This document shows positions 2,614 through 8,659 of a DNA stretch of 22,421 nucleotides, one piece after another; the stretch's first letter is position 1; the number at the start of each line of letters is the position of its first letter. The stretch is from a virus (taxonomy: Duplodnaviria > Heunggongvirae > Uroviricota > Caudoviricetes). A program made the position numbers and the translations under genes. The notes under the pieces are model-generated. The model ran no database searches and was not told where the DNA came from. It worked only from the letters and a program-made list of their open reading frames with translations. Location: IMG/VR virus record IMGVR_UViG_3300022758_000225, positions 1 through 22,421 of that record, one strand, 5' to 3'.

Positions 2614-3263
2614 GCCGCCATCTCCCTGACCAGTTTTTCCGCCTGCTGGCGAACCTGCGCCAGAAACGCCTCACCACATGCCTCAAGTTCATCGCGCCCG
2701 ATGTAGCTGATTGCCGGTCCCTTCCAGGTCTTGTCGAAAACAGCAATAGCACCAGCGAAGAAAGCGCCTGTCGGCACCTGCTTCTCGTCCTTCGGTATAA
2801 ACCAGGCAGGCAGTTCAAAACCAATACGCCCGCGAATAAAAGCAATATGATCTGCATCTTCCGGCCACCACACTTCGCTGGTGGCCGCTTTGATCAGGAA
2901 AACATAGCGCCCGCCCTTATCACGCATGGCACTGGCATGTTTCATGATGTAACGCATGCCGGTGATGTATTGCCCCTCATGCTGACTGGCGCGGCTGTAT
3001 GGGGGATTACCAAAGGCAGCACCTTTAAGCTCCGCAAGACGTTCTGACCAGTCATGCGCCAGCGCGTTATCTTCCGCCGTGTAATACGCGGCACATTTGG
3101 CGTTATCACCGTCAGTAAACAGATCCAGAACAAACGGGCCAAACAGAGTGTTAATTCCCCAGAAAATGTTGTCCGGCGTGCGCCACTGATCGCCCACTTC
3201 CTTCAGTTCATGGGCTGGTTTGTTCCGCAGTTCCACCAGTGCCTGACAATATTTATTACTCAT
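2610..3263 (-). CDS. phage N6-adenine DNA methyltransferase (Dam-like orphan methylase)
   Basis: Contains the NPPY motif (FGNPPYS) and a DLFTDGDN region typical of phage N6-adenine methyltransferases. Preferred start is ATG at 3263, overlapping the upstream stop as TAATG; the track gives a GTG at 3296. Confidence 0.8.
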   Translation of the reverse strand: MSNKYCQALVELRNKPAHELKEVGDQWRTPDNIFWGINTLFGPFVLDLFTDGDNAKCAAYYTAEDNALAHDWSERLAELKGAAFGNPPYSRASQHEGQYITGMRYIMKHASAMRDKGGRYVFLIKAATSEVWWPEDADHIAFIRGRIGFELPAWFIPKDEKQVPTGAFFAGAIAVFDKTWKGPAISYIGRDELEACGEAFLAQVRQQAEKLVREMAA

Positions 3264-3745
3264 TAAGCCCCCACGTAATTCCCTGACAGATACCACTCTT
3301 CACCCGATGCTGCGCGCTTGCTGCTTTTCTGTAAGCACTGCTCACGACGCGCCAGAAAATTGTTTCGTTCTGGCTGGGAGTGGCTTTCACGGAATGCCGC
3401 CATCCACACCGTTGCAGCACGACGGTATAAGCCCCTGGACTCCAGTTCTTCAGCCTGGCGAATCACCCGGGGATCGTTAGTGCCGACATAGAAATTGCGC
3501 ACAGGTCTGGTTTCACGAACTGGTTGTGGTTCCGGCTCCTGCGCTCTCTCAGTCAGGCGCGGGAAATGTCTGCGTGTATCTCCTTCACAACGGTGAGCCA
3601 CACGCCCACTCTGACGTAACTTGCTTGCTGACTGCAGAACGCGCTGTCGTGAGTAACCTGCAAAAGCATCCGCAATGTCTCCGAAAGTACACCCCGGATG
3701 GGCTTCAATGAATTTCTGAACTTCATTCAAAAGACTCATGATCAC
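3263..3745 (-). CDS. putative DNA-binding regulator with PerC-like C-terminal region
   Basis: 160-aa ORF in an operon of overlapping genes. The segment RVIRQAEELESRGLYRRAATVWMAAF resembles PerC-family proteins, from recall only. Confidence 0.4.
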   Translation of the reverse strand: MIMSLLNEVQKFIEAHPGCTFGDIADAFAGYSRQRVLQSASKLRQSGRVAHRCEGDTRRHFPRLTERAQEPEPQPVRETRPVRNFYVGTNDPRVIRQAEELESRGLYRRAATVWMAAFRESHSQPERNNFLARREQCLQKSSKRAASGEEWYLSGNYVGA

Positions 3746-5921: not shown

Positions 5922-5970
5922 ATTATTTTCACGCAAATATTTTGCGCAAGTTGATTTGCTTAACGCGCAA
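5907..5970. promoter_or_regulatory. OR-like operator cluster and divergent promoters between the cro-like and cI-like genes
   Basis: Three 15-bp palindromic sites centred about 24 bp apart: TTGCgtgatgaGCAt (5907-5921), cGCAAatattTTGCg (5932-5946), TTGCttaacgcGCAA (5956-5970). TTGATT at 5951-5956 and TAATAA at 5982-5987 are candidate promoter hexamers. Confidence 0.5.
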
Positions 5971-5990: not shown

Positions 5991-6684
5991 ATGAACATAG
6001 GAAACCGAGTCAGACAACTTCGCCAGGCGAAGAACATGAAAATCGCCGATCTCGCTGAAGCAATAGGAGTGGATGCGGCGAATATCTCACGCCTGGAAAC
6101 AGGTAAGCAGAAACAATTCACTGAACAAGCCCTGAGTAATATTGCCAGGAGCTTAGGTGTTGATATTGCTGATCTCTTTACCTCAGACGTCAAAAGTAAT
6201 ACTGTATGTAAAAACAGTATTAGTGAGGATGTTGCGCAGGTGAAGGATGTATTCCGTATTGAAATGCTGGATGTCAGTGCCAGTGCGGGAAATGGCCTTA
6301 TCCAGGGCGGTGATGTCATTGATGTGATTCATGCCATTGAATACAGAACTGATAATGCTGTATCGATGTTTTGGCGGACGGCCAGCCAATCACATTAAAG
6401 TTATCAACGTTCGTGGGGACAGTATGTGTCCAACCATTGAGCCAGGAGATCTCATCTTCGTTGATGTCAGTATCAATCAGTTTGATGGAGATGGTATCTA
6501 TGTATTTGGTTTTGATGATAAAATTTATGTCAAGCGACTGCAAATGATACCTGACAAACTACTGGTGATTTCTGATAACCAGATTTACCGTGAATGGGGA
6601 ATTACCAGCGAAAATGAACACCGGTTTATGGTCTTTGGAAAGGTCTTAATCAGCCAGTCACAAACCCTTAAGCGACACAATTAA
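5991..6684 (+). pseudogene. cI-like prophage repressor (XRE HTH plus S24 LexA-like peptidase domain) interrupted by a frameshift
   Basis: ORF 5991..6398 carries the HTH (IADLAEAIGVDAANISRLETGKQ) and an Ala-Gly site (SASAGNG). ORF 6331..6684 in the +1 frame carries the S24 motifs GDSMCPTIEPGD and KRL. Removing one T from the T4 run at 6369-6372 joins them as ...NAVSMFGGRPANHIKV.... Confidence 0.7.
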
Positions 6685-6704
6685 CCCTTACCTCCTCATC
6701 AATT

Positions 6705-6726
6705 AGCCACCCAAAGGTGGCTTTTC
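6705..6726 (+). terminator. intrinsic terminator downstream of the cI-like gene
   Basis: Stem agccacc / ggtggct with loop caaa, followed by TTTT, about 20 nt after the cI stop at 6682-6684. Confidence 0.5.
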
Positions 6727-6739
6727 ATTACCCTTTAAA

Positions 6740-6792
6740 TTGCATATCTCGCAACAAAAACACTTGCATAATGCGCAACTTCATTTTATCTT
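6740..6792 (+). promoter_or_regulatory. OL-like operators with candidate PL promoter
   Basis: Two TTGC-N7-GCAA sites (6740-6754 and 6764-6778), 24 bp centre to centre, the same motif as the OR sites. TTGCAT at 6764-6769, a 17-bp spacer and TATCTT at 6787-6792 form a candidate rightward promoter. Confidence 0.4.
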
Positions 6793-7222
6793 TCTTTCCA
6801 GACAAACAAACAAGGTACTAACAAAATTTGGTTGTAACACGGCGTATGGCACATGCGTCGTTAGCGGTCTGGGGACGTTAAAGGGGACAATCCACTCCTT
6901 GCTCGGGCAAACAAACCAGGTAGCCGGAATGTGCAAGTCAATGATGATGCTGATAAGACGCCTAACCAGCGTGGCGGTTCGGTTTGACACCTGGGAAGAG
7001 ACCAGGGTGCAACGATGAGGGCATTTATGGAACCGCGACAAAGTGTGGTGCCGTAACTGGCTAAGTGCTCTCAGCGTTGTGGTGAATGCGCAGGCTGATG
7101 CGCGAAAGACATTGCAGCTATTGCGGAAAAGAGCTGTTCGGCGGGGCAATTAAACGCCCGTGAGAGTCTGAAATAACCGCAAGCCGGAGATCAGCACCGG
7201 TCACCACAACAGCCACTGCTTT

Positions 7223-7270
7223 AGCGGTACCAGTTTGTACACTTGCTTCCGGCTGGTACCGCTCTTTTTT
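7223..7270 (+). terminator. intrinsic terminator in the early-left leader (tL-like)
   Basis: Perfect 11-bp stem agcggtaccag (7223-7233) / ctggtaccgct (7253-7263) with a 19-nt loop, followed by T6 at 7265-7270. Confidence 0.5.
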
Positions 7271-7407
7271 ACAAAACAGAGAAGAGCATCACCGGACGAC
7301 GGGCTCATAACCCAATCCATCCGGGCGGCTGCCACCGCAGGTGTTCTTCTCTGTTTTGTGGAGAAACCAACCGACCTTGCAGGGTCGATATGATGAGGAG
7401 CAGCAAA

Positions 7408-7770
7408 ATGGCTAGCGTACGCAGTACTGATGTGCAGGCATTTATCGGGGAGCTGGACGGCGGCGTATTTGAAACCAAAATCGGCGCTGTTCTCAGTGAA
7501 GTCGCTTCCGGTGTGATGAACACGAAAAACAAAGGTAAGGTCTCGCTCAACCTGGAAATCGAACCATTTGATGAGAACCGTGTGAAAATCAAACACAAAC
7601 TCTCATATGTTCGCCCGACTAACCGCGGGAAAATTTCCGAAGAAGACACCACCGAAACGCCGATGTATGTCAATCGCGGTGGTCGCCTGACTATTCTGCA
7701 GGAAGACCAGGGACAATTACTGACTCTTGCCGGTGAACCTGACGGAAAACTCCGCGCAGCAGGTCATTAA
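7408..7770 (+). CDS. hypothetical early-left protein (first gene after the leader; yfdP-like by position and size)
   Basis: ATG at 7408 preceded by GAGGAG at 7395-7400; 120 aa. No similarity to lambda N. Track ORF 7243..7770 is an upstream extension without an RBS. Confidence 0.5.
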   Translation: MASVRSTDVQAFIGELDGGVFETKIGAVLSEVASGVMNTKNKGKVSLNLEIEPFDENRVKIKHKLSYVRPTNRGKISEEDTTETPMYVNRGGRLTILQEDQGQLLTLAGEPDGKLRAAGH

Positions 7771-7835: not shown

Positions 7836-8659
7836 ATGTCTCAGAACTTAGACGCAACCGCAATTAATCAAATCCATGCCCTTATTTCTGCTCAGGGTGT
7901 TAATGAAATTATCAGTAAGATTGGTGCCGATGCTGTGGCATTGCCTGAGAATTTCCGCATTCATGATCTGGAAAAATTTAATTTAAATCGCTTCCGTTTC
8001 CGTGGTGCGCTTTCCACTGCCAGCATCGATGACTTTACCCGTTATTCTAAAGATCTTGCAGATGAAGGCACCCGCTGCTTTATCGATGCCGATAATATGC
8101 GAGCCATCAGTGTGCTTAACCTGGGTACTATTGATGAACCAGGTCACGCAGATAACACCGCCACTCTCAACTGAAAAAGACAGCACCGTTCTCTGCCCTG
8201 CTGTCTGTTAATGGCGAGCGTAACTCCCAGAAGTCACTGGCAGAATGGATTGAAGACTGGGCCGACTATCTTGTGGGCTTTGATGCTAATGGTGACGCTA
8301 TTAAGGCAACAAAAGCGGCTGCGGCAGTCCGTAAAATCACGATTGAAGCAAACCAGACCGCTGATTTTGAAGATAATGACTTCAGCGGCAAACGCTCTTT
8401 GATGGAGTCTGTCGAAGCGAAAACCAAAGACATTATGCCAGTAGCATTTGAGTTTAAATGCGTTCCGTTTGAAGGCCTGAAAGAACGTCCGTTTAAATTA
8501 CGCCTCAGCATTATCACTGGTGATCGTCCTGTACTGGTTCTGCGCATTATTCAGCTGGAAGCGGTGCAGGAAGAAATGGCTAACGAATTTCGTGATCTGC
8601 TTGTTGAGAAATTCAAAGACAGCAAAGTAGAAACCTTTATTGGTACTTTCACCGCCTGA
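7836..8659 (+). pseudogene. DUF2303-like (yfdQ-like) gene split by a frameshift
   Basis: N-part 7836..8174 (frame 0) stops at 8172-8174. The C-part frame is open from 8156 and continues to 8659 (track ORF begins at GTG 8273). The two frames overlap in 8156-8172; joined length is about 274 aa. Confidence 0.5.

What the first reader, a model, noticed from the sequence alone, without database searches (positions are those of the whole stretch)
6793..7407. ~620-bp untranslated structured leader with terminator and 15-bp inverted repeat, and no N-like gene
Between the PL-like promoter and the first early-left gene there is no credible ORF. The region contains a strong terminator (7223-7270) whose T tract forms GCTCTTTTTTACAA, resembling the rrn boxA GCTCTTTAACAA. 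Directly after it, a perfect 15-bp inverted repeat (ACAAAACAGAGAAGA at 7271-7285, its complement at 7345-7359) encloses a 59-nt GC-rich loop, ending 36 nt before GAGGAG-ATG. Early-left expression must pass this terminator, so the leader may encode an RNA-based (put-like) or host-factor antitermination element, or a small RNA.
Basis: partly seen in the sequence, partly recalled or inferred. Interest (0 to 1): 0.6.

Follow-up and report, generated by a model that had tools for sequence, protein, structure and literature searches.

The report
Modular structured-RNA leader of prophage early-left operon
The 620-base gap after the prophage's early-left promoter encodes no protein; it is a chain of conserved, independently shuffled folded-RNA modules, none in the RNA family database Rfam 15, one of which recurs with a near-invariant core in phages and bacteria of several phyla.

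Summary
In detail: 6793-7407 has no conserved ORF, and holds a strong hairpin plus T-run (7223-7270) and a perfect 15-bp inverted repeat (7271-7285 / 7345-7359).

The interval is structured non-coding RNA, but it is a mosaic of separate modules, each supported by compensatory base changes:
- A (6840-7006): five helices, two of them pseudoknotted (one of those two never varies).
- S (7010-7079): a long stem carrying a variable cargo.
- K (7075-7212): a four-helix junction with two complementary loops.
- A terminator whose stem covaries between phages.
- M (7271-7359): a three-way junction. One arm matches, as I recall it, the E. coli initiator-tRNA anticodon stem-loop.

A, S and K recur beside tRNA genes in P1, epsilon15-like, T1-like and Vi1-like phages. 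A tRNA can sit exactly where K sits. K's 20-nt core occurs unchanged in many bacterial classes. Rfam 15 has none of these modules. The boxA resemblance is not conserved, and put membership fails.

My best reading (about 0.45) is a tRNA-operon-like RNA-gene cassette inserted between PL and an ancestral terminator-plus-M leader. The main rival (about 0.25) is RNA-mediated antitermination. Function is untested.

The parts
6705..6722 (+). Terminator-like hairpin closing the cI-like repressor gene, upstream of the leader.
   Evidence: Consensus scan: 7-bp stem followed by TTTT.
6740..6792 (+). OL/PL-like region. Two operator repeats TTGCATnnnnnGCAA (6740-6754 and 6764-6778), -35 TTGCAT 6764-6769, 17-nt spacer, -10 TATCTT 6787-6792. 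Transcription probably starts near 6800.
   Evidence: Direct repeat D2. A related operator lies at 5956 in the cro/cI intergenic region. The hexamers were read by eye and were not flagged by the scan. Similarity to relatives with other immunity regions begins about 6820.
6840..7006 (+). Module A.
- H1: 6840-6860.
- Loop GCAC (6849-6852), which may pair with GUGC (6931-6934).
- H2: GUCUGG 6867-6872 with CCAGGU 6916-6921.
- Invariant GGUAGCCGGAAUGUGCAAG 6919-6937.
- H4: 6958-6972, whose loop AACC (6964-6967) pairs with GGUU (6981-6984).
- H5: 6990-7006.
   Evidence: 27 distinct copies: 96.2% of cells paired, against 26-46% when partners are slid. 11 pairs have changes on both sides, and 0 of 500 shuffles reach the observed value on four of five measures. 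The same module lies after tRNA-Ile upstream of ban in P1, and between a promoter-like sequence (read by eye) and tRNA-Arg in phiV10.
7010..7079 (+). Module S. A long stem, CAACGAUGAGGGCAUUU with AAGUGCUCUCAGCGUUG, encloses a variable cargo. Its GUUG overlaps the 5' arm of K's closing stem.
   Evidence: Fold -28.7 kcal/mol, z = -2.9. The same stem family, with T-arm-like or other cargo, occurs in P1, RCS47, Magnus, swi2, EPP-1 and phage 6991. Pair types covary in a scripted survey.
7075..7212 (+). Module K, a four-helix junction.
- Closing stem P1: 7076-7084 with 7202-7210.
- Hairpin L1: 7088-7103 (GCGCA-GGCUGA-UGCGC).
- Variable arm: 7104-7182.
- Hairpin L2: 7183-7201 (GCCGG-AGAUCAGCA-CCGGU).
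- Loops complementary: GCUGA with UCAGC.
   Evidence: Covariance model R1 scores 86.9 bits, E = 2e-21, and finds one copy in the window. In 41 copies, 95.5% of cells are paired, 12 pairs have changes on both sides, and 0 of 500 shuffles reach the observed value. P1 arms differ completely between copies yet stay complementary. One copy has a compensatory GCUAA/UUAGC change in the two loops.
7223..7270 (+). Intrinsic-terminator-like hairpin, here called tL0. An 11-13-bp stem, a 19-nt loop, then CUCUUUUUU.
   Evidence: A T-run sits directly upstream of M in 105 of 107 distinct related leaders. The stem sequences differ but stay complementary: GGCGGUACCAG, GUCGGCGUC, GGCGGUUAUCCA.
7271..7359 (+). 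It is a three-way junction.
- A closing stem of about 19-23 bp.
- An arm CCGGA...UCCGG ending in GGGCUCAUAACCC (7301-7313).
- A short variable arm (7325-7338).
   Evidence: Fold -48.3 kcal/mol, z = -7.3. In 21 distinct copies, 33 consensus pairs were predicted and 8 have compensatory changes, for example G-C 11 against C-G 10 at one position. The CGGGCUCAUAACCC string matches the anticodon stem-loop of E. coli tRNA-fMet as I recall that sequence; this was not checked against a database here.
7360..7407 (+). GGAGAAAC spacer, a small hairpin at 7372-7387, a Shine-Dalgarno sequence GAGGAG at 7396-7401, then the yfdP ATG at 7408.
   Evidence: GGAGAAAC and a following hairpin are present in most sampled M-containing leaders, upstream of different first genes. 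The hairpin alone is not better than shuffles (z = -0.1).

Best explanation
Shown:
- The interval is a non-coding leader, on the strand that PL would transcribe, made of at least five separable RNA elements: A, S, K, a terminator hairpin and M.
- Each is conserved and keeps its base pairs through compensatory changes.

Inferred from comparison:
- The ancestral leader of this phage group is PL, then terminator tL0, then M, then the first early-left gene.
- A, S and K form a cassette of RNA genes inserted between PL and tL0. They use the repressor-controlled promoter and the pre-existing terminator as their own expression signals.
- The same cassette parts accompany or replace tRNA genes in unrelated phages.

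Inferred mechanism (my commitment, about 0.45):
- On derepression of PL, most transcripts end at tL0. This gives a discrete, highly folded RNA of about 470 nt. Host RNases that process tRNA and rRNA operons (RNase III at the long S and M duplexes, RNase P or RNase E at the cloverleaf-shaped K) probably cut it into stable pieces.
- A fraction of transcripts reads through tL0 into M and yfdP, so tL0 acts as an attenuator that sets the ratio of RNA products to early-left mRNA.
- M is the 5'-UTR element of the first gene. It is a likely processing or translation-control site, comparable to the RNase III hairpin in the lambda N leader.

What the released K and A RNAs do in trans is unknown. Their tRNA-like features and tRNA neighbours make interference with, or mimicry of, tRNA-handling machinery the most natural guess.
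For: Non-coding status.

Strand: invariant G-U pairs would be A-C mismatches on the other strand, for example U-G and G-U in 27 of 27 copies of A. G-U pairs also occur in K and M.

Modularity:
- Different stretches of the leader match different phages.
- About 88%-identical leaders keep A, S, the closing stem, the terminator and M, but hold a different cargo in place of K.
- Among 107 distinct M-containing leaders, the upstream modules are A or B, combined with K1, K2, K3 or none.
- Some leaders are simply PL, about 70 nt, terminator, M (L261), or PL directly followed by M (L295).

Link to tRNA genes:
- P1: tRNA-Ile, then A, then ban. S- and K-type modules follow tRNA-Thr.
- RCS47: K lies about 80 nt after tRNA-Thr, behind an S-type stem.
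- phiV10: a promoter-like sequence (read by eye), A, S, tRNA-Arg, then the same type of terminator.
- K and tRNA-Arg start at the same offset (164 nt) from A's invariant motif.
- Among 132 distinct K copies, same-strand tRNAs lie nearby in 23 and opposite-strand tRNAs in 1.
- K's variable arm and the S cargo often hold T-arm-like hairpins.

Terminator: conserved in position, with covarying stems.
Against: - No expression, end-mapping or processing data were available, so a discrete terminated RNA and RNase cleavage are pure inference.
- The near-invariance of K's two loops across bacterial phyla is more than a shape-recognised processing signal would need.
- The loops could covary but almost never do.
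- Only 23 of 132 K copies lie near a tRNA.
- Only 29% of K copies are followed within 200 nt by a terminator-like hairpin, against 15-18% in controls.
- K is not recognised as a tRNA by ARAGORN or by the Rfam tRNA model.
Confidence: 0.45

Rival explanations
1. RNA-mediated processive antitermination, working like put. The nascent K (or A) RNA binds the transcribing RNA polymerase and lets it pass tL0 and later terminators. It would also protect the long untranslated transcript from Rho, replacing the missing N protein.
For: - The phage has no N gene but has a conserved terminator in the leader.
- A or K lies promoter-proximal and upstream of tL0 (L112 is PL, K, terminator, M).
- K's 20-nt core is unchanged from enterobacterial phages to alpha-, beta- and delta-proteobacterial genomes, as expected for contact with a universally conserved enzyme.
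- K often lies downstream of an S24-type repressor gene on the same strand: 25 of 75 viral loci and 11 of 71 genomic loci with enough flank. It lies upstream of RecT-like genes in 15 loci (RecT assignment by eye, not searched).
- Terminator-like hairpins are about twofold enriched downstream of K.
- Hairpin H1 of A shares the arms ACGGCG and UGCGUCG with stem I of HK022 and HK639 putL.
Against: - There is no homology or shared architecture with put.
- Leaders exist that have the terminator but no A, B or K-type module upstream by my patterns: 9 of 107, for example L261. Read-through there cannot depend on these modules.
- In P1, A sits after a tRNA with no terminator before ban.
- K also occurs in virulent T1-like and Vi1-like phages, beside tRNAs or tRNA-like sequence.
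Confidence: 0.25
2. K is a ligand- or factor-sensing aptamer (a riboswitch-like 'tuning fork': closing stem, two kissing hairpins, conserved junction). It would control formation of the terminator 12 nt downstream.
For: - The architecture and the strictly conserved junction and loop nucleotides.
- The terminator begins 12 nt after K's closing stem in the window.
- Part of the L2 3' arm (CCGGUCACC) could pair imperfectly with the terminator 5' arm; this is by eye only.
Against: - The terminator-plus-M unit occurs with any upstream module or with none.
- Only 29% of K copies have a terminator-like hairpin within 200 nt downstream.
- Many K copies are followed by tRNAs or other RNA modules rather than by an expression platform.
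Confidence: 0.08
3. K is a self-cleaving ribozyme that cuts polycistronic RNA and tRNA precursors.
For: - Cross-phylum invariance of unpaired nucleotides and a compact multi-helix junction with a loop-loop contact.
- Co-orientation with tRNA genes.
- Phage tRNA-associated ribozymes are known: the theta ribozymes (PMC10879173, found).
Against: - No match to any ribozyme family in Rfam at E up to 10. The only hit is a 14.5-bit partial hairpin-ribozyme match elsewhere in the leader.
- No cleavage data.
- No recognisable catalytic core motif.
Confidence: 0.07
4. The interval encodes one or more small or unannotated proteins, or acts as a DNA-level site such as a recombination or replication site.
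For: - ORFs are annotated here in mEp460 and other phage records.
- phrog_3651 matches the antisense ORF 7201-7596.
- A 29-codon ORF is open in six close homologues.
Against: - The ORFs are broken in relatives, and the small ORF varies in length and frame.
- Compensatory changes and invariant G-U pairs point to RNA of the + strand.
- No Pfam families match.
Confidence: 0.03

Closest known systems
put RNAs of phages HK022 and HK639 (cis-acting antiterminator RNAs)
   Same: Both are non-coding RNA elements just downstream of the early promoter of N-less lambdoid phages, with terminators downstream. Hairpin H1 of module A has arms ACGGCG and UGCGUCG, like put stem I.
   Different: put is about 70 nt with two stem-loops. 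A is about 170 nt with five helices, two of them pseudoknotted, and K is a four-helix junction with kissing loops. No significant sequence similarity was found, and K is absent from HK022 and HK639. Function is untested here.
Lambda N leader (nutL followed by an RNase III processing hairpin before N), and the E. coli metY-nusA-infB leader (tRNA, terminators, RNase III site, ORFs). Both are cited from my own knowledge.
   Same: The order promoter, RNA element(s), terminator or processing hairpin, first ORF. M's long perfect duplex is RNase III-like.
   Different: No boxA/boxB and no N gene. M carries an initiator-tRNA-like anticodon arm rather than being a plain hairpin. Processing was not tested.
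Large phage-associated structured RNAs that lie beside tRNA genes (ROOL, GOLLD), and tRNA-like Y RNAs (YrlA)
   Same: Ornate, multi-helix non-coding RNAs in phages and prophages, with loop-loop contacts. They are often adjacent to tRNAs or contain tRNA-like parts (YrlA paper PMC4201824 was listed but not read).
   Different: No Rfam model matches at the gathering threshold in any source scanned, or at E up to 10 in the window interval. These modules are smaller (about 100-190 nt) and independently shuffled. The hosts sampled are mainly Proteobacteria.
tRNA
   Same: K has cloverleaf topology. Its closing stem abuts the L2 arm without a spacer, there are 3 nt before the L1 arm, a variable third arm, and the L1 and L2 loops touch like D and T loops. 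This is an inference. K occupies the slot a tRNA occupies in relatives. M holds an anticodon-arm look-alike.
   Different: K is not detected by ARAGORN or by the Rfam tRNA model. The elbow would be a 5-bp Watson-Crick kissing contact. There is no free CCA end and no anticodon arm of fixed size.

Membership tests
put antiterminator RNA (HK022/HK639) | Lies just downstream of the early promoter, on the transcribed strand. | tested here: met
   Module A begins about 40 nt after the inferred start site. In several relatives A starts within about 10-20 nt of an operator/promoter-like sequence.
put antiterminator RNA (HK022/HK639) | About 70 nt, two stem-loops, with sequence similarity to known put sites. 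| tested here: not met
   blastn of the leader against the HK022 early region gave only chance-level matches. The structures of A and K differ from put. The resemblance is limited to the two arms of one hairpin.
put antiterminator RNA (HK022/HK639) | Terminator read-through in cis that depends on the beta-prime zinc-binding domain. | not testable with these tools
   Needs in vitro transcription or rpoC mutants.
Lambda-type nut site with N | A conserved boxA (CGCUCUUA-like) followed by a boxB hairpin. | tested here: not met
   The GCTCTTT of the window reads GTCC, GCCC or GACC in SfV, phiNP, ST64B and Kp4866-6 and in many IMG/VR relatives. It is simply the 3' arm and T-run of the terminator.
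Lambda-type nut site with N | An N-like gene as the first early-left gene. | tested here: not met
   The first gene is yfdP, which has no Pfam match and matches phrog_204 of unknown function. No N-like product is annotated in the near-identical PMV-1 prophage.
Intrinsic (Rho-independent) terminator | A G+C-rich hairpin immediately followed by a U-run. | tested here: met
   Stem of 11-13 bp, -21.2 kcal/mol, z = -4.5, then five or six U. The position is conserved and the stems covary. The 19-nt loop is atypical. Efficiency was not measured.
Any Rfam 15 family (4227 models, including tRNA, C4, DicF, AgvB, AsxR, ROOL, GOLLD, YrlA and the ribozymes) | A match at the family's gathering score. | tested here: not met
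   No hit in the whole window. Only five chance-level hits at E up to 10 in 6650-7500. In seven related loci only true tRNA genes were found.
tRNA | A cloverleaf with D, anticodon and T arms detectable by tRNA finders. | tested here: not met
   ARAGORN finds 0 genes in the window. There is no Rfam tRNA hit at E up to 10.
Transcriptional riboswitch | A conserved aptamer consistently coupled to an overlapping expression platform. | tested here: inconclusive
   A terminator-like hairpin lies within 200 nt downstream in 48 of 163 K copies, against 24-29 of 163 in controls. The terminator in this phage group also occurs without K.

The most novel reading that the evidence does not exclude
Module K would be a previously unrecognised, very widespread class of structured RNA. 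It is cloverleaf-shaped, with its two hairpin loops (GGCUGA and AGAUCAGCA) and its junction nearly invariant from enterobacterial phages to alpha-, beta- and delta-proteobacterial genomes, and possibly other phyla. It would act through base-specific contact with a universally conserved machine, for example as a general RNA-based antiterminator or anti-Rho device for phage early operons and RNA operons, or as a new ribozyme or tRNA mimic. Module M would add a second new element: an initiator-tRNA anticodon-arm mimic placed before the first early-left gene.
Probability: 0.3. Interest if true: 0.9.

Novelty: new variant of a known kind. Interest (0 to 1): 0.7.

Why it matters
- N-less lambdoid phages of the SfV/ST64B/mEp460/cdtI/Stx2c group are common. 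2664 of 5426 complete E. coli genomes match part of this leader, and 798 match at least 80% of it. How their early-left operon is expressed past a conserved terminator is not explained by known N or put mechanisms.
- The leader exposes a set of mobile RNA modules shared by temperate and virulent phages and linked to phage tRNA genes. These modules are missing from Rfam and from phage annotations, where spurious ORFs are called over them.
- One module, K, is conserved at the sequence level across bacterial classes. That usually marks an RNA with a specific molecular partner.
- Identifying that partner would open a directly testable question about how phages control transcription or handle host tRNA machinery.

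Tried and rejected
- Rfam at gathering and relaxed thresholds found nothing relevant.
- ARAGORN found no tRNA or tmRNA in the window. The 'tmRNA' it called in swi2 ends at a true tRNA-Met and looks spurious.
- put homology: the HK022 and HK639 early regions were fetched and compared. No similarity appeared beyond one hairpin's arms, and no K is present.
- The King 2011 paper on put-like RNAs could not be read. The put alignment in the Hwang 2022 supplement is an image.
- Known prophage sRNAs (AgvB, AsxR, Pas, STnc100) lie in other regions or are Rfam families that do not match.
- Full-text search for the conserved strings of A and K found no paper.
- E. coli K-12 CPS-53 has yfdP but lacks this leader.
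- Hairpin ribozyme: the string AAACAGAGAAG in the inverted repeat resembles the ribozyme's 5' end, but the repeat is a perfect duplex without loop A (and by eye).
- Hammerhead: CUGAUG...GAAA in K is not conserved in other copies.
- Extra covariation test of the kissing loops: scans for L1-loop variants returned almost only chance matches. Two real C-to-U variants keep a wobble pair. Including one compensatory copy seen earlier, the pairing is consistent but rests on few events.
- Neighbour-gene clustering around K in 120 genomic loci found only repressor-like and RecT-like early genes in a minority of loci. No constant protein partner emerged.
Full report
**Context.** The window is a lambdoid prophage of the SfV/mEp460/cdtI type. 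The leader query (6685-7410) is 99.9% identical to a prophage of E. coli PMV-1 and 97.8% identical to phage mEp460. In PMV-1 the gene order is Q antiterminator ... cro-like HTH on one strand. On the other strand come the cI-like repressor, a 722-bp gene-free gap, then yfdP, yfdQ, yfdR and further early-left genes. No N-like product is annotated. Part of the leader matches 2664 of 5426 complete E. coli genomes, and 798 genomes match at least 80% of it.

**Check of the observation.**
- The repressor gene ends at 6684 and is followed by a small terminator at 6705-6722.
- Two operator-like repeats, TTGCATnnnnnGCAA, sit at 6740 and 6764. They resemble TTGCTTAACGCGCAA at 5956 between the cro-like and cI-like genes. 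I read a promoter as TTGCAT (6764-6769), 17 nt, TATCTT (6787-6792). The consensus scan did not flag it.
- The hairpin 7223-7233 / 7253-7263 is 100% complementary and is followed by a T-run. It folds at -21.2 kcal/mol, z = -4.5.
- The 15-bp inverted repeat is perfect and extends further.
- The ATG of yfdP is at 7408.

**The interval does not code for protein.**
- The four longer window ORFs gain stops or frameshifts in homologous leaders of 72-88% identity.
- The three tested have no Pfam match.
- phrog_3651 matches the antisense ORF 7201-7596. That ORF is broken in two relatives and overlaps yfdP on the opposite strand.
- A 29-codon ORF inside module A stays open in close relatives. Across 76 distinct A copies, however, its length ranges from 5 to 96 codons and the conserved block is read in all three frames.

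**The leader is a mosaic.** A blastn search of phage genomes with the leader gave matches to different sub-segments in different phages.
- 6826-7003 matches phage P1 at 71010-71194. There it is unannotated DNA between tRNA-Ile and ban.
- About 6839-7082 matches epsilon15-like phages such as phiV10. There it lies directly upstream of a tRNA-Arg gene that ARAGORN finds but the record does not annotate.
- 7063-7211 matches the P1-like phage RCS47 about 80 nt after tRNA-Thr.
- A 40-nt core (7064-7104) is about 90% identical in Vi1-like, T1-like, Edwardsiella, Cronobacter and Erwinia phages.
- 7221-7410 matches SfV and SfIV. Parts of it match ST64B, phiNP and Klebsiella phages.

Reading these loci side by side defined five elements.

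**Module K (7075-7212).**
- Its consensus is a closing stem P1, then (G/A)UGAAU, then hairpin L1 (GCGCA-GGCUGA-UGCGC). A variable arm of about 20-200 nt follows, then (C)AA, then hairpin L2 (GCCGG-AGAUCAGCA-CCGGC), which runs directly into the 3' arm of P1.
- In more than 100 IMG/VR loci the P1 arms differ completely yet remain complementary. Examples are GUUGUGGUG/CACCACAAC, GAUUGGAUG/CAUCCAAUC and GAGCGGUCUG/CAGACCGCUC.
- On 41 diverse copies, 95.5% of cells form standard pairs, against 26-48% when partners are slid. Twelve pairs show changes on both sides, and no shuffle of 500 reaches the observed values.
- The loops are complementary (GCUGA with UCAGC). That pairing holds in 99% of cells, including wobble variants.
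- One divergent copy carries GCUAA with UUAGC. Two C-to-U variants keep a U-G wobble.
- Otherwise the loops almost never change. They therefore seem constrained beyond pairing.
- A covariance model finds one K in the window (86.9 bits). It finds K copies in P1, RCS47, Magnus, swi2, EPP-1 and phage 6991, and none in HK022 or HK639.
- The exact 20-mer GAATGCGCAGGCTGATGCGC occurs in genomes of Enterobacterales, Pseudomonas, Xanthomonadales, Burkholderiales, Rhizobiales and Desulfobacterota. It also occurs in MAG contigs labelled Flavobacterium, Coriobacteriia and Phycisphaerales.
- In 85 of those 120 loci an L2-like hairpin was also found within 400 nt. In most of the rows printed the flanking arms are complementary.

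**Module A (6840-7006).** On 27 distinct copies my structure has these elements:
- H1.
- H2.
- H4.
- A pseudoknot between the H4 loop and downstream GGUG.
- H5.
- A possible second pseudoknot between the H1 loop GCAC and GUGC in the invariant stretch.

It has 96.2% of cells paired, against 26-46% when slid. Eleven pairs have changes on both sides, and no shuffle reaches the observed value on four of five measures. The GCAC/GUGC contact never varies, so it is neither supported nor contradicted. RNAalifold proposed a long-range alternative for the 5' part. The covarying pair at alignment columns 12 and 24 (G-C 16, A-U 11) favours the local hairpin H1.

A lies immediately after operator/promoter-like sequences in many prophages. 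It lies after tRNA-Ile in P1, and between a promoter-like sequence (read by eye) and tRNA-Arg in phiV10-like phages.

**Module S (7010-7079) and its family.** Long stems of the form CAAC-A-G-G-U-AAGAGCA...UGCUCUU-...-GUUG enclose variable cargo. The cargo is often a hairpin with a T-loop-like sequence such as GGUUCGAAUCC.

The GUUG at the 3' end of S is also the start of K's closing stem, so the two helices compete for it. In phiV10-like phages a genuine tRNA-Arg starts at the same offset (164 nt from A's invariant motif) at which K starts in the window. K and a tRNA are thus alternative cargo at one position.

**The terminator and module M.** Leaders of SfV, ST64B, phiNP and Klebsiella phage Kp4866-6 were aligned with the window. 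IMG/VR was then scanned for the M core.
- Among 107 distinct leaders, 105 have a T-run directly upstream of M.
- In the leaders read, the hairpin before the T-run differs in sequence but keeps its pairing. Examples are GGCGGUACCAG/CUGGUACCGCC, GUCGGCGUC/GACGCCGAC and GGCGGUUAUCCA/UGGAUAACCGCC.
- The sixth T is one of ten homopolymer indels that separate the window from PMV-1.

M is a three-way junction. It has a closing stem of about 19 bp with compensatory changes at several positions, one of them G-C in 11 copies and C-G in 10. It has an arm CCGGR...YCCGG whose closing pair switches between G-C and A-U, and a short variable arm.

The tip of the conserved arm is GGGCUCAUAACCC. With its 5' C, it equals the anticodon stem-loop of E. 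coli initiator tRNA, including the three G-C pairs, as I remember that sequence. I did not check this against a database. In relatives the loop is CUCAUAA, CUCAUUA or GUCAUAA.

M is followed by GGAGAAAC, a hairpin and the ribosome-binding site of whatever gene comes first: yfdP/sb37-like or several unrelated ORFs.

**Which parts are ancestral.**
- A few leaders consist only of a promoter, about 70 nt, the terminator and M (L261). In others the promoter is followed directly by M (L295).
- Upstream of the terminator the other leaders carry A (35) or a different module B (51: SfV, ST64B, phiNP). These are combined with K, a K variant (K2), an unrelated cargo in the same closing stem (K3), or nothing.
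- In L112 the promoter is followed directly by K.

This pattern is what insertion and exchange of RNA cassettes between PL and a pre-existing terminator-plus-M leader would give.

**Strand and molecule.**
- Several invariant pairs are G-U or U-G. These would be mismatches on the opposite strand or in duplex DNA. The selected structure is therefore RNA of the + strand, the strand PL transcribes.
- The whole 608-nt leader folds better than shuffles (z = -3.6, 20 shuffles). The minimum-free-energy fold recovers H1, H5, S, L1, the terminator and M, though it does not form K's P1 or L2.

**How it most likely works.** I commit, with about 0.45 confidence, to the cassette reading.
- PL drives an early, abundant, heavily folded RNA that mostly ends at tL0. 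It is probably processed like a tRNA or rRNA operon, with a fraction reading through into M and the early-left genes.
- The steps shown are non-coding status, module structures, modular exchange, tRNA linkage and terminator conservation.
- The steps inferred are termination efficiency, processing, and any trans function.
- The main rival, at about 0.25, is that K or A acts like put. Its best support is K's cross-phylum sequence invariance and its frequent position downstream of repressor genes.
- Against that rival stand the lack of any put-like architecture, leaders with the terminator but none of these modules, and K's presence in virulent phages beside tRNAs.
- Riboswitch, ribozyme and coding or DNA-site readings are less likely, for the reasons given under rivals.

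**Comparison with known systems and novelty.**
- None of the modules matches any of the 4227 Rfam 15 models, in the window or in seven related phage loci. There only the true tRNAs score.
- No paper in the searchable library contains the conserved strings.
- Large-scale surveys of candidate structured RNAs in IMG/VR exist (PMC10690425) and may include unnamed versions. I could not check this.
- I therefore rate the finding as a new variant of a known kind: structured phage leader or tRNA-associated RNAs. I give about a 0.3 chance that K is a new RNA class with its own mechanism.

**Limits.**
- All functional statements are inference from sequence comparison.
- The shuffle control does not correct for relatedness of the sequences, although the slid-partner control does.
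- The IMG/VR and genome scans were seeded with conserved strings. The invariance of those strings within the retrieved sets is therefore partly by construction.
- The independent check is the low yield of the loop-variant scans, together with the K copies found by the covariance model in loci retrieved through module A.

Noticed in passing
window 469, 4332, 5209, 5662, 5788, 5872, 5926, 6369, 7265, 8169: Over 13.4 kb the window differs from the E. coli PMV-1 prophage by ten single-base indels, most in short homopolymer runs. The only substitutions are three in the last 15 nt of the alignment. The extra T at 6369 splits the cI-like repressor into an HTH ORF (5991-6398) and an S24-peptidase ORF (6331-6684). 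The missing A at 8169 splits yfdQ. This pattern looks like sequencing or assembly error rather than gene decay.
   Followed up: partly
L003 (phage P1) 1463-2032, and L004 (RCS47) 3056-3667: The annotated P1 genes plp and upl lie on the strand opposite to the ban operon. They sit exactly over S- and K-type RNA modules, whose structure is on the ban strand. These ORFs may be annotation artefacts.
   Followed up: no
L241 (SfV) about 395-470, L242 (ST64B) about 640-710, L243 (phiNP) about 530-600: In these relatives the promoter-proximal module is not A. It is a different element of about 70 nt, 'B': CAGGCAGGACGCCCACGAAGUAGCCGCC, a covarying hairpin, then GGAUGAUUCG. B shares the strings GAAC..GGC and GGAUGA with HK022 and HK639 put at similar spacing. 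It is present in 51 of 107 M-containing leaders and could be a put relative.
   Followed up: partly
window 7301-7313: GGGCUCAUAACCC in module M is identical to the anticodon stem-loop of E. coli initiator tRNA-fMet, as recalled from memory. It lies about 95 nt upstream of the yfdP start codon and is conserved in more than 100 related leaders, with minor loop variants.
   Followed up: partly
L172, L174, L188, L234, L200 (leaders 72-88% identical to the window): The same closing stem GUUGUGG...CCACAAC holds, instead of K, a different cargo (CCGCGAAAUGGCGCGGCGGUAAGUAUG...). By eye this resembles the start of the P1 ban leader just upstream of its 'dicF-like region'.
   Followed up: no
L300, about 260 nt upstream of M: A tRNA-like sequence sits in the K slot between GUUGUGG and CCACAAC. 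It has a D-arm, a CAU anticodon loop, a T-arm and a large insertion.
   Followed up: no
window 6803-6817 and 6908-6922: A direct repeat, CAAACAAACAAGGTA and CAAACAAACCAGGTA, 105 nt apart. The second copy supplies the 3' strand of helix H2 of module A. The first lies at the very 5' end of the transcript. Its meaning is unknown.
   Followed up: no
L354, L361, L396 (MAG contigs labelled Flavobacterium, Coriobacteriia, Phycisphaerales): K's exact 20-nt core occurs on these contigs. L354 and L361 also have a recognisable L2; L396 was not among the rows printed. This could be true spread beyond Proteobacteria or mis-binned phage contigs.
   Followed up: no
window 7201-7596 (- strand): phrog_3651 (unknown function) matches this ORF at E = 7e-71. 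The ORF is antisense to yfdP and to module M, and is interrupted in diverged relatives. The family may be built on spurious ORF calls.
   Followed up: partly
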